A program made the position numbers and the translations under genes. Under the pieces are notes generated by a model. It had not been told where the DNA came from. It did not search any database and saw nothing but the letters and a program-made list of their open reading frames with translations. 64,000 nt of DNA from Octopus vulgaris (Eukaryota), in the NCBI GenBank assembly GCA_951406725.2, contig OX597815.1, positions 55,862,001-55,926,000 on the forward strand, written 5' to 3'. Below are positions 45,607-60,474 of this stretch, one piece after another; positions within the stretch are counted from its first letter, which is position 1, and each line of letters begins with the position of its first letter.

Positions 45607-47652
45607 GTAGGTCCCGGGTTGATTCGGGGTTAACCACAGTAAATAAGGTACTCAATACATAGCAGAGTAAATTAATTTATTTTATAGAAGGAGCTTCTAC
45701 AGGACTAGAACTGTTTCATTCAAAAGAAATCATCAGGAAGCTAGGTGACAAGAATAGTTTTGGCATTTATAAACTGAGGCAGGTTTAAGGGGTGGTGGTG
45801 GGGGACTTTTTGGGGTAGGCATGGCGCAAACTATCATTCTTAGGGGAGTGGTCAAAGGAATCAGTGATAAAGTAGATAAAAGAATAAATAGAATAATAGA
45901 GTTTACATACACATACCCACATACATCCATATACACATGTACATATGCACCCATTTACATACATCTACGTACTCACCCATACCCATACTCATACATACAC
46001 ACAAATATCTACACACATATATATGTAAAATAAATAAATATAAAAGACGATATACACCCCCATACACACACGCTCACATATCCATATATATATATATATA
46101 TATACACACATTCATACACACTCTTATATATATATATATATATATATATATATATATATATATATATATACACACATATATATATATACATACATATATA
46201 TATATTGTTTTTATTTGACCTCGACCAACGAGGCCGACACAGAGGTAGGTTTCTCCCAAGGGAGCTTAGCTAGCTGGCTTAAAAAACCATTTATTGCCCC
46301 TCTACCTTCCTTTCTATCTTTCTACCCACTGATACGAACACAAACACTTACACACGCACACACACTCACACGCACACTCATACACATACACAGACGCACG
46401 TGTTATATTCATACATACATAAGTGTACCGACTTTCACATAAACGTACACATAGCTATGTACACACAAAACCACATATATAAATGTACTTCAGTACACAT
46501 AAACACACAAGAATATCTGCCCACATATATAGACTCATATGCCTATATACAGACATTTGTGCATATAAACATACATACGCATATATACACATCCATACGC
46601 CTTTAAGTACATATTAGCACACATTCACGCATACACGTGTACATAAAAGCATACCTACATATTTCTACCTACACTCATACATATACATACGTGCACATAT
46701 ATACGCATACGTAGACGTACCTACAGATTCATATCTACACGCATACACATACATACATCTGCACACACACAGAAGACTAGTCCACATATATACACAAGTA
46801 TATATATATATATATACACATGTATACACACATACATATATATACATATATATATACATATATATATATATACACACACATATATACACATACACGCACG
46901 TATATACCTACATATACATACACATATATACCTACACCAGTCATATACATACCTACATACACATACATCCATATATCTATACACTTACATACATATATAC
47001 ATATACACATGCCCATACCAATACACATACGCATACCTACGCACATACACGCACTCACATCTATCTACATATATAAAAAAAGAAACCCAACAAATCCGTA
47101 CTTATACACTCATACACATACATACATACATATACACACATATATACCCATACATATATACACACACACATATATACACGCATGTATATATATATATATA
47201 CACACATACATACATATATATATATATATATATATACACATACATATGCATACACACACATCTACATACACATACATATACATCCGTACGCACACCCATA
47301 TACATACATACGTCCACACAGAGGTATACAGGCATATACACACATATATATATACACACACATACATACACACACACATATATATATATATATACACACA
47401 CACGTACGCACACAAATATATACCCATACATATATACACATATATACACACACAGATATATACACGCATGTATATATACATATATATATGTATATATATA
47501 CATATATATACATACATACACATACACATACATACACACACATCTACATGCACATACGCATACTTCTGTACGCACACCCATATACATACATCGACACAGA
47601 GGTATACAGGCATATACACACATATATACACACACACACACACACACACACA
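45607..47652 (-). mobile_element. Outer left arm: distal 3' UTR/pLTR of the Hydra-type PLE
   Basis: Reverse complement of 58502-60474, including the unique islands and the hammerhead. Confidence 0.85.
45692..45742 (-). ncRNA. Type I hammerhead ribozyme
   Basis: Inverted copy of 60409-60459. Confidence 0.8.
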
Positions 47653-47962
47653 ATATATATATATATATATATATATATATATATATATATATATATATAT
47701 ATATATAATATTCAATAAAGGGTGGAATATAATTAATTTAATAAAATTAATCAATTTCACCTAGTAGATTTGTCGGTATGGAAAAGACTATATTTGGTCT
47801 TTATATATATATATATAACCCTTTATATATATATATATATATATATATATATATATATATATATATATATAATATTAATTAGAGACAAACCACTATTTTG
47901 CAAAACAAACAAGGAAAGACTTAATCAATGCATAACATTTTAATAAAAAGTTAAAAAAACCG

Positions 47963-48006
47963 CCACTACAATTGTTTCATGTCTTCAAATGACAATCTTC
48001 AGGTGG
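47963..48006 (-). ncRNA. Type I hammerhead ribozyme
   Basis: Inverted copy of 50563-50606. Confidence 0.75.
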
Positions 48007-58363: not shown

Positions 58364-58401
58364 TCTTTCTGTTGAAGAGCGTAGGCTCGAAACGTTAAAG
58401 A
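58364..58401 (+). ncRNA. Minimal hammerhead-like motif (CUGUUGA variant) in 3' pLTR
   Basis: Same motif as 8790-8827. Confidence 0.55.
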
Positions 58402-58501
58402 CTTGTTTTATTTATATTTCCTGAGCGCCATACTAATACAATTGTTCGTTTGTTTTCCACCTGCCTTCGTCTTTTGTTTATTTTCATAAAGCTTCCCGTT
58501 A

Positions 58502-60474
58502 TATATATATATATGTGTGTGTGTGTGTGTGTGTGTGTATATGTGTGTATATGGCTGTATACCTCTGTGTGGATGTATGTATGTATATGGGTGTGCGTAC
58601 GGAAGTATGTGTATGTGCATGTAGATGTGTGTGTATGTATATGCATGTGTATGTATGTATATATATGTATATATATATATATGTAAATATACATGCGTGT
58701 ATATATCTGTGTGTGTATATATATGTGTATATATGTATGGGTATATATTTGTGTGCGTACGTGTGTGTATATATATATATATATATATATGTGTGTGTGT
58801 ATGTATGTGTGTGTATATATATATGTGTGTATATGCCTGTATACCTCTGGGTGGACGTATGTATGTATATGGGTGTGCGTACGAATGTATATGTATGTGT
58901 ATGTAGATGTGTGTGTATGTATATGTATGTATATATATATATATATATGTATGTATGTATATATATATATATATATATATATATATACATGCGTGTATAT
59001 ATGTGTGTATATATGTGTATATATGTATGGGTATATATGTGTGTATATGTATGTATGTATGTGTATGAGTGTATAAGTATGGATTTGTTGGGTTTCTTTT
59101 TTTATATATGTAGATAGATGTGAGTGCGTGTATGTGCGTAGATATGCGTATGTGTATTGGTATGGGCATGTGTATATATATGTGTATGTATATGTATAGA
59201 TATATGGATATATGTGTATGTAGGTATGTATATGACTGGTGTAGGTATATATGTGTATGTATATGTAGGTATATACGTGCGTGTATGTGTATATATATGT
59301 GTGTGTATATATATATATATATATATATATATGTGTGTATACATGTGTATATATATATATATACTTGTGTATATATGTGGACTAGTCTTCTGTGTGTGTG
59401 CAGATGTATGTATGTGTATGCGTGTAGATATGAATCTGTAGGTACGTCTACGTATGCGTATATATGTGCACGTATGTATATGTATGAGTGTAGGTAGAAA
59501 TATGTAGGTATGCTTTTATGTACACGTGTATGCGTGAATGTGTGCTAATATGTACTTAAAGGCGTATGGATGTGTATATATGCGTATGTATGTTTATATG
59601 CACAAATGTCTGTATATAGGCATATGAGTCTATATATGTGGGCAGATATTCTTGTGTGTTTATGTGTACTGAAGTACATTTATATATGTGGTTTTGTGTG
59701 TACATAGCTATGTGTACGTTTATGTGAAAGTCGGTACACTTATGTATGTATGAATATAACACGTGCGTCTGTGTATGTGTATGAGTGTGCGTGTTAGTGT
59801 GTGTGCGTGTGTAAGTGTTTGTGTTCGTATCAGTGGGTAGAAAGATAGAAAGGAAGGTAGAGGGGCAATAAATGGTTTTTTAAGCCAGCTAGCCAAGCTC
59901 CCTTGGGAGAAACCTACCTCTGTGTCGGCCTCGTTGGTCGAGGTCAAATAAAAACAATATATATATATGTATGTATATATATATATGTGTGTGTATATAT
60001 ATATATATATATATATATATATATAAGAGTGTGTATGAATGTGTATATATATATATATATATATATGGATATGTGAGCGTGTGTGTATGGGGGTGTATAT
60101 CGTCTTTTATATTTATTTATTTTACATATATATGTGTGTAGATATTTGTGTGTATGTATGAGTATGGGTATGGGTGAGTACGTAGATGTATGTAAATGGG
60201 TGCATATGTACATGTGTATATGGATGTATGTGGGTATGTGTATGTAAACTCTATTATTCTATTTATTCTTTTATCTACTTTATCACTGATTCCTTTGACC
60301 ACTCCCCTAAGAATGATAGTTTGCGCCATGCCTACCCCAAAAAGTCCCCCCATCACCACCCCTTAAACCTGCCTAAGTTTATAAATGCCAAAACTATTCT
60401 TGTCACCTAGCTTCCTGATGATTTCTTTTGAATGAAACAGTTCTAGTCCTGTAGAAGCTCCTTCTATAAAATAA
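58502..60474 (+). mobile_element. Outer right arm: distal 3' UTR/pLTR of the Hydra-type PLE
   Basis: Inverted repeat of ~45678-47652; ends in (TA)n. Confidence 0.85.
60409..60459 (+). ncRNA. Type I hammerhead ribozyme with canonical core
   Basis: agcttc-CTGATGA-T-TTC tttt GAA-T-GAAA-CAG ttctagtc CTG-TA-gaagct. Confidence 0.82.

What the first reader, a model, noticed from the sequence alone, without database searches (positions are those of the whole stretch)
45607..60474. 15-kb nested palindrome: a PLE carrying its own (TA)n target was re-invaded in both arms by other PLEs
Seen: two concentric inverted repeats (~45678-47652 / 58502-60474 and ~50840-51679 / 51860-52672) diverge from one junction at ~51860, and the whole lies between (TA)n arrays. 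Removing 47653-50830 (left) and 52673-58501 (right) gives the same order in each arm: GIY-YIG end, proximal UTR, (TA)n, ~2-kb microsatellite-like UTR, hammerhead. The left internal (TA)n holds a second hammerhead-bearing PLE (itself an inverted pair) plus a short fragment. The right holds the intact Neptune element, whose 5' junction has lost ~10 bp of arm sequence plus the TA tract. Known: PLEs make inverted insertions and some prefer microsatellites. Inference: elements carrying internal (TA)n seed landing pads for other PLE clades, a self-amplifying nesting loop. Asymmetric insertions may also stabilise an otherwise unstable palindrome.
Basis: partly seen in the sequence, partly recalled or inferred. 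Interest (0 to 1): 0.75.

Follow-up and report, generated by a model that had tools for sequence, protein, structure and literature searches.

The report
Penelope tail captures nested jumping genes
This is an ordinary back-to-back insertion of a Penelope-type jumping gene whose long TA-rich tail was later hit by three other TA-seeking elements; in a sister lineage one such intruder sits at the same spot in dozens of copies and was likely captured once and then copied along with its host.

Summary
The structure is real. The outer element is a Hydra-clade Penelope-like element (PLE) in its usual inverted form: 36 of 40 pairs have one long (tail) end and one short end. That layout is published, and this scan found it before on other DNA of this genome. 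The left array holds a second Hydra family and a non-coding stub; the right holds a very young Neptune-type element. The 2-3-kb UTR carries about 12 (TA)n tracts per arm and takes up foreign inserts (15 in 165 kb, against 0 in 77 kb of ORF). These fall at many sites and come from many element classes, so there is no single landing pad. Such UTRs are a minor target genome-wide, and palindrome stabilisation is unproven. New here: a sister subfamily carries a 230-bp two-ended insertion of a free 560-bp TA-targeting family at one UTR tract (32 of 32 arms). Its identity to the free family falls from about 92% to 82% along the ORF tree, which points to capture and co-amplification. Verdict: new variant of a known kind.

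The parts
45506..45605 (.). (TA)50, left half of the target array of the outer insertion
45607..45677 (-). 70-nt tail (long 3' end) of family A, left arm only
   Evidence: same long end in other copies; internal copies continue into the 5' UTR
45678..47652 (-). Family A left arm, distal microsatellite-like 3' UTR with hammerhead core at 45713-45736
47654..47707 (.). (TA)27, piece of the internal array of the left arm
47708..47823 (-). Stub of family C (about 560-bp non-coding tandem unit): tail, (TA)8, 6-bp inverted stub
   Evidence: near-identical (98-99%) copies elsewhere, tandem and inverted, ending in TA
47824..47871 (.). (TA)24 between the C stub and family B
47872..50293 (-). Family B (second Hydra-type PLE) long-reaching arm, UTR only, short 3' end, hammerhead core 47974-48002
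50294..50781 (+). Family B inverted arm with hammerhead core 50567-50595 and 81-nt tail 50700-50781
50782..50831 (.). (TA)25, piece of the internal array of the left arm
50832..51406 (-). Family A left arm, proximal 3' UTR; the (TA)21 at 51129-51170 lies in the tract region where subfamily A2 carries the captured module
51407..51859 (-). Family A left arm, GIY-YIG end of the ORF (CxCX5C linker, CxxC, CxH)
51860..52132 (+). Inversion junction and family A right arm, GIY-YIG end
52133..52672 (+). Family A right arm, proximal 3' UTR; last 8 nt and the upstream TA lost at the insertion
52673..58499 (+). Neptune-type PLE: upstream pLTR 52673-54027, ORF 54640-57870 (RT + GIY-YIG), downstream pLTR 57151-58499 with minimal hammerhead near 58364-58401
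   Evidence: 40 of 40 listed genomic hits 100% identical over the last 300 bp
58500..58513 (.). (TA)7, remainder of the internal array of the right arm
58514..60474 (+). Family A right arm, distal 3' UTR, hammerhead core 60415-60438, short 3' end
60475..60528 (.). (TA)27, right half of the target array

Best explanation
The region is one inverted insertion of a Hydra-clade Penelope-like retrotransposon in a (TA)n array, and its TA-rich 3' UTR was likely hit afterwards, once by a Neptune-type element in the right arm and by a second Hydra family plus a non-coding stub in the left arm. Shown: two arms with the family's two fixed 3' ends, the same UTR order in other copies, TA tracts at both ends of the inserts (except the Neptune 5' junction), and more foreign inserts in UTRs than in ORFs. 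Inferred: both target strands were nicked and primed reverse transcription at two RNA start sites 70 nt apart, giving diverging arms. Each arm delivers about 12 new (TA)6+ tracts, which any TA-seeking element can use. Usually the insert just decorates a dead copy. Once, an insert of a free 560-bp family likely landed in a source copy, stayed in the transcript, and was copied into all descendants (subfamily A2). That both arms here were hit at the same tract is most likely chance plus selection of a symmetrical locus.
For: Long+short ends in 36 of 40 diverging pairs from 75 loci. Link prox-(TA)8-20-dist in L068, L070, L074, L075, L076, L078, L081; 32 of 40 set-1 arms run from ORF end to hammerhead. 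The two arms are each other's nearest match, 6 mismatches against 13 or more for other copies of that span. Neptune pLTRs 0.07% against arms 1.1-1.6%. No sibling composite among 20 family-B loci. Median 12 (TA)6+ tracts per clean arm (n=49, range 3-27) against 0.65 per kb in the rest of the window. Foreign inserts 12 in 73.6 kb and 3 in 91.4 kb of UTR, 0 in 31.8 and 45.1 kb of ORF; P 0.013 and 0.3, product 0.004. Capture: module in 32 of 32 RT-selected loci with an ORF end; 30 of 30 fetched module hits in the A2 UTR; module is an inverted short-end arm plus a long-end arm, matching free ends at unit positions 464 and 559; module-bearing rows form one clade (FastTree support 0.997) with shorter terminal branches (median 0.0009 against 0.0074); identity to the free family falls from 91-92% to 82% with tree depth (Spearman -0.64, n=32).
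Against: Family-B arms (0.9-1.6%) are about as diverged as family-A arms, so their order rests on geometry, not on age. Inserts were called by eye from k-mer scans; 8 open arms of set 1 and 4 of set 2 were dropped. Three set-2 copies end inside the ORF at a TA tract; if two of them count as ORF inserts, the contrast falls to about P 0.06 (hand calculation, unstratified). Both copy sets were top-40 similarity hits, not random samples. The tree has no outgroup and was polarised by terminal branch length; copies share ancestry, so the Spearman P values overstate independence. 2 of 2 arms against 0 of 7 other copies hit at this tract gives Fisher P 0.028 (post hoc), which chance explains only loosely. 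No RNA or read data were laid.
Confidence: 0.8

Rival explanations
1. The junction tract is a specific landing pad, or the palindrome directs a second insertion to the mirror position of the first (the first insert leaves an unpaired TA tract opposite it in a hairpin).
For: Both arms are hit at the same tract, while the second copy of that tract (280-bp duplication in both arms) is not. Inserts in L093, L085 and L095 lie within about 60 nt of the equivalent point (by eye).
Against: 0 of 7 same-type copies have an insert there. The 12 set-1 inserts are spread from 315 to 2255 nt after the stop codon. In L076, L083 and L084 an insert in one arm has no mirror insert in the other.
Confidence: 0.1
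2. The module of subfamily A2 is an ancestral part of the family-A UTR that the window's lineage lost by deletion between microsatellites.
For: No outgroup roots the tree; deletions between microsatellites are plausible (general knowledge).
Against: No remnant in module-free arms (10 shown). Module-free copies are the older ones. The earliest-branching module copies are the closest to the free family (95% over the left arm in L172 and L177, 82% overall in the youngest). Even under loss, the module is an insertion by its two-ended shape.
Confidence: 0.08
3. The composite formed in one step by template switching between RNAs of different families during reverse transcription, or one insert was already in the template.
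For: Family-B arm divergence is similar to family-A arm divergence.
Against: Neptune pLTRs are about 20 times younger than the arms. Family B has its own short and long ends with TA on both sides. No sibling composite among 20 B loci.
Confidence: 0.05
4. The palindrome is an assembly fold-back.
For: Long reads were not examined.
Against: 39 substitutions and 18 gap events between arms, different 3' ends that follow the family rule, different inserts.
Confidence: 0.02

Closest known systems
Hydra clade of C-terminal EN+ Penelope-like elements, e.g. Hydra-1_Obim (Craig et al. 2021, PMC8557442; passages, section 11 and supplement searches read)
   Same: Single RT + GIY-YIG ORF, CxCX5C linker, DKT, RW[RK], CxxC and CxH near the end, hammerhead motif, (TA)n insertion, inverted 5'-truncated copies with a tail at one end.
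   Different: Described families are short (<3 kb) with tails of 30-40 bp. Families A and B have 2-3-kb microsatellite-like 3' UTRs (about 4.5-5.5 kb in all) and tails of 70 and 81 nt. Nesting and capture in the UTR are not mentioned in the parts read ('nested' occurs 0 times).
PAc (Poseidon of Anolis) with two internal reverse-transcription start sites (Frangieh et al. 2024, PMC11167929; parts 1-2 of 4 read)
   Same: Two fixed 3' ends separated by the tail; both target strands cut and extended in vitro; AT-rich targets.
   Different: Different clade; here the ends pair up as long plus short in 36 of 40 inversions; no biochemical test here.
Neptune clade PLEs (Craig et al. 2021, supplement rows)
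   Same: DKG, YIDD, CX2-5CxxC linker with the long spacer seen in Neptune rows, pLTR-ORF-pLTR, TA targeting (24 of 25 true 3' ends).
   Different: No tree against reference Neptune and Nematis sequences was built.
Animal non-LTR retrozymes / non-autonomous PLE partners (bioRxiv 10.64898/2026.07.22.740005, passages)
   Same: The captured module's source is a 559-560-bp non-coding unit in tandem and inverted arrays with PLE-like two ends; two of the three related units hold a CTGAnGA...GAAA motif.
   Different: Here a fragment without that motif rides inside an autonomous PLE's UTR; family C of the window showed no canonical core.
Microsatellite-targeted TE arrays in plants: SaTar (PMC5907723, abstract and section 19) and MuTAnT (PMC4486113, passages); microsatellite birth in non-LTR elements (PMC3812793, passages)
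   Same: Unrelated elements pile up at TA tracts; TA tracts are long on both sides of inserts; elements carry or seed microsatellites.
   Different: SaTars are DNA transposons stacked without nesting; here retroelements nest inside a UTR and one nested piece was apparently co-amplified.

Membership tests
Hydra-clade PLE (family A) | Single ORF with RT and C-terminal GIY-YIG | tested here: met
   Open 722-aa frame in L179 with YRDD and YIG; window holds only the end. Pfam does not recognise it; 1428 unnamed homologues found.
Hydra-clade PLE (family A) | CxCX5C linker in place of CX2-5CxxC | tested here: met
   (families A and B)
Hydra-clade PLE (family A) | DKT for DKG; RWK motif; GxKF/Y not conserved | tested here: met
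   DKT present, RWR at the N-terminus, no GxKF/Y match; RWR is a one-residue variant
Hydra-clade PLE (family A) | CCHH absent; CxxC and CxH flank the conserved E and N | tested here: met
   CCDLC and CMH read by eye
Hydra-clade PLE (family A) | Canonical hammerhead motif | tested here: inconclusive
   Core and GUA site kept in 122 of 132 ends; stem I forms in one fold, stem II is only 3 bp; no Rfam hit; minimum-energy folds are not the hammerhead; cleavage untested
Hydra-clade PLE (family A) | (TA)n insertion | tested here: met
   Most ends listed run into TA; the exceptions are internal tandem copies or ends cut by later inserts
Hydra-clade PLE (family A) | Generally short (<3 kb) | tested here: not met
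   ORF 2.2 kb plus UTR median 2.25 kb (set 1) or 3.15 kb (set 2); described as a tendency, not a diagnostic
Hydra-clade PLE (family A) | RT phylogeny groups with reference Hydra families | not tested
   Only by-eye comparison with supplement rows; reference sequences were not brought into a tree
Neptune-clade PLE (right insert) | DKG, CX2-5CxxC linker, CCHH-type GIY-YIG | tested here: met
   spacer length like Neptune rows, unlike Nematis rows (by eye)
Neptune-clade PLE (right insert) | RT phylogeny | not tested
   no reference tree
Non-LTR retrozyme (source of captured module) | Non-coding tandem unit of a few hundred bp with a hammerhead | tested here: inconclusive
   559-560-bp tandem units; core-like motif in two of three related units; structure and activity not tested
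Non-LTR retrozyme (source of captured module) | Circular RNA intermediate | not testable with these tools
   the run search (kind dna) listed no run on record as RNA

The most novel reading that the evidence does not exclude
Hydra-clade PLEs grow their 3' UTRs by a self-seeding loop: the UTR manufactures the very (TA)n target that the element and its neighbours use, foreign inserts land there, and those that land in a source copy become permanent passengers. The module of subfamily A2 would be one caught step, and older complex islands in the UTR would be earlier steps. This loop would contribute measurably to the TA density and nesting of this genome.
Probability: 0.4. Interest if true: 0.62.

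Novelty: new variant of a known kind. Interest (0 to 1): 0.42.

Why it matters
The locus itself is ordinary nesting of known element types. The added value is a dated case in which a target-seeking retroelement carries its own target class and appears to have picked up a neighbour's insertion as a heritable part of its RNA. That gives a concrete route for UTR growth in PLEs and a natural marker for ordering subfamilies. It also warns repeat annotators that such UTRs will be split or mislabelled. A genome-wide feedback on microsatellite content is possible but not shown.

Tried and rejected
Rfam scan gave only microsatellite-driven miRNA matches below gathering scores, no hammerhead. A hand-drawn hammerhead structure was misregistered and is uninformative. 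Pfam missed family A; the VtrA_C match (E 0.004, below cut-off) is taken as noise. Homologue search gave no useful names. My first guess, Nematis (from recall of YRDD), was dropped. A composite master carrying family B was sought and not found (0 of 20). Mirror-position targeting: not seen in 3 of 3 informative pairs. Palindrome stabilisation: inconclusive; among 41 other pairs the largest uninterrupted repeat with a spacer under 500 bp is 942 bp (L131), and L061 keeps 1760 bp around 938 bp. Sequencing runs were listed but none was laid, so read support and presence/absence in other individuals remain open. Literature searches that found no report of UTR capture or self-seeded targets in PLEs: (open-access library only; Repbase reports and Arkhipova 2006 not seen). 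A search of earlier scan notes by the module's sequence found nothing.
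Full report
Observation. A self-alignment confirms both inverted repeats and the direct repeat of the right insert. 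The distal arms differ at 30 of 1935 columns, the proximal arms at 9 of 809, the family-B arms at 6 of 377 and the two pLTRs of the right insert at 1 of 1346. Four hammerhead core motifs lie in the region (7 in the window, 0.81 expected), plus a minimal variant in the right insert whose stems form in the predicted fold. Rfam found no hammerhead. The window lies in a 2.8-Gb genome of 227 contigs; earlier scan notes call it an octopus genome, which I did not test.

The outer element (family A). I fetched 10-kb stretches for 38 of the 40 best genomic matches to its GIY-YIG end and two matches to its distal UTR. Upstream of the window's junction, copies continue into an RT with GLYRDD. A 722-residue open frame in L179 has RWR, DKT, YRDD, a CxCX5C linker, and CxxC and CxH near the end. 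These are the features given for the Hydra clade in PMC8557442 section 11, which also says almost all Hydra families insert into (TA)n. No reference tree was built. In 32 of 40 arms the ORF end runs to the hammerhead through a 2-3-kb microsatellite-like UTR. Seven copies show the exact link: proximal UTR, (TA)8-20, distal UTR; most others belong to subfamilies whose UTR differs at that point.

Why it is a palindrome. Family A has two fixed 3' ends 70 nt apart. Of 40 diverging pairs in 75 loci, 36 have one long and one short end, 2 are long-long and 2 are intermediate. The window follows the rule. Inverted 5'-truncated copies with a tail at one end are described in PMC8557442. PMC11167929 shows in vitro that a PLE protein cuts and extends both strands and starts reverse transcription at two RNA sites that bound the tail (parts 1-2 of 4 read). 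I infer the same here. The two arms are each other's nearest match and share a 280-bp duplication, so one source is likely. Earlier scan notes reached the same reading on other DNA.

The inserts. Family B is a second Hydra-type PLE (39% identical to A over the RT) with its own 2-kb UTR, an 81-nt tail and inverted pairs. None of 20 fetched B loci sits in family A at this site; one (L127) has a weak A-like match 500 bp away. The stub at 47708-47823 belongs to a non-coding family with a tandem unit of about 560 bp. The right insert has DKG, YIDD and a CX2-5CxxC linker with Neptune-like spacing. It is very young: all 40 listed matches are 100% identical over 300 bp. Of 30 fetched, 5 are internal pLTRs; 24 of the 25 true 3' ends run into TA, and only the window's lies in a family-A UTR. 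L093 is an independent case with a different 5' junction.

Landing-pad test. Clean arms carry a median of 12 (TA)6+ tracts (n=49), against 0.65 per kb in the rest of the window, so each insertion adds more targets than it uses. I counted foreign inserts by eye from k-mer scans in arms with both ends seen. Set 1 (GIY-selected): 12 events in 10 of 32 arms, 73.6 kb. Set 2 (35 of 40 RT-selected hits): 3 events in 2 of 29 arms, 91.4 kb. The ORFs of the same loci, minus the query stretch, show none in 31.8 and 45.1 kb; P is 0.013 and 0.3, product 0.004. Dropped: 8 open arms in set 1 and 4 in set 2, most of them broken by foreign sequence in the UTR. Three copies end inside the ORF at a TA tract; counting two as ORF inserts gives about P 0.06 by hand. 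The set-1 events lie from 315 to 2255 nt after the stop codon. Four are PLE-type and eight are SINE-like, Helitron-like, LINE or unknown; these labels rest on recalled terminal motifs. None of the 7 same-type copies has an insert at the junction tract, against 2 of 2 arms here (Fisher P 0.028, post hoc). Seen from the invaders' side, family-A UTRs are rare targets: 0 of 87 loci of three C-type families lie inside one, and one abuts an A end. So the UTR is a general sink, not a special pad, and a genome-wide loop is not shown.

Capture. All 32 set-2 loci with an ORF end carry a 230-bp non-repetitive module 280-440 nt after the stop codon, in the first TA-rich tract. All 30 fetched of the 40 best module matches lie in this subfamily's UTR with the same flanks; together about 58 module copies were seen. 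The module matches a free 559-560-bp family. Free copies end at unit positions about 464 and 559 before TA (14 and 31 of 46 ends). The module consists of an inverted arm starting at the short end and a direct arm ending at the long end, which is the signature of an independent two-ended insertion. On an ORF tree of 76 segments, the 33 module rows form one clade with one row whose UTR is cut off by the end of its stretch (support 0.997). Their terminal branches are shorter than those of the 42 module-free rows (median 0.0009 against 0.0074). Identity to the nearest free family falls from 91-92% in the earliest-branching copies to about 82% in the youngest (Spearman -0.64, n=32; rows are not independent). 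The tree has no outgroup, but age, topology and identity agree on one gain followed by co-amplification. L179 carries both an open ORF and the module. The window's own element lacks the module.

Stabilisation. With inserts removed the window would have 2831 bp of inverted repeat around 181 bp, the most extreme of 42 pairs measured; the largest uninterrupted repeat with a spacer under 500 bp elsewhere is 942 bp. This fits instability of long tight palindromes but also plain rarity, and an 840-bp repeat around 181 bp still stands here. I cannot tell.

Relation to what is known. TA targeting, inversion and tails of PLEs are published (PMC8557442, PMC11167929). Piling of unrelated elements at TA tracts is known in plants (PMC5907723 abstract and section 19; PMC4486113 passages), and so is microsatellite birth in retroelements (PMC3812793 passages). 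A recent octopus repeat annotation does not mention nesting in the passages searched (PMC13282606). Eight searches found no report of a PLE UTR capturing and amplifying a nested insert; composite retroelements in general are known (recalled). Supplements of the bioRxiv preprint were not seen. Verdict: real, mostly known architecture, with one well-supported new variant found outside the window. Interest 0.42.

Noticed in passing
L171-L205, ORF near the WYNPP motif: Many copies of both subfamilies break frame at the same C-rich run between RT and linker; L179 and L171 stay open there. This may be homopolymer error or a real shared change.
   Followed up: no
L093:5051-6421 and window 52673: Two independent Neptune-type inserts are 5'-truncated within 12 nt of each other, just upstream of the linker cysteines; possibly a preferred truncation point.
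   Followed up: partly
L203 UTR, 945-2280 after the stop codon: Family A appears to have inserted an inverted arm into its own UTR tract (self-nesting).
   Followed up: no
L077 and L178 UTRs: A further element with its own microsatellite-like UTR and a shared 3' end sits in both; possibly a third long-UTR PLE family.
   Followed up: no
L076, L083, L084 UTRs: The same 390-bp element with TC...CTAG ends (Helitron-like, label from recall) inserted at three different UTR positions.
   Followed up: no
window 20399-25046 (-) and 8623-8932: Further copies of the same Neptune-type family, 93-96% identical, next to TA arrays.
   Followed up: no
window 41545-44135 and 43017-43640 (-): Another inverted pair with a hammerhead core at 41707-41732, enclosing a 207-aa frame with no Pfam match.
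   Followed up: no
window 59820-59955 / 46200-46335: A non-repetitive island in the distal UTR varies strongly between subfamilies and could be an older captured piece.
   Followed up: no
L174, L176, L185: Three copies stop inside the ORF and run straight into a TA tract, without the usual 3' end in view for two of them.
   Followed up: partly
L233: A family-B tail abuts a family-C inverted array across one TA tract, the same pairing as in the window but outside family A.
   Followed up: no
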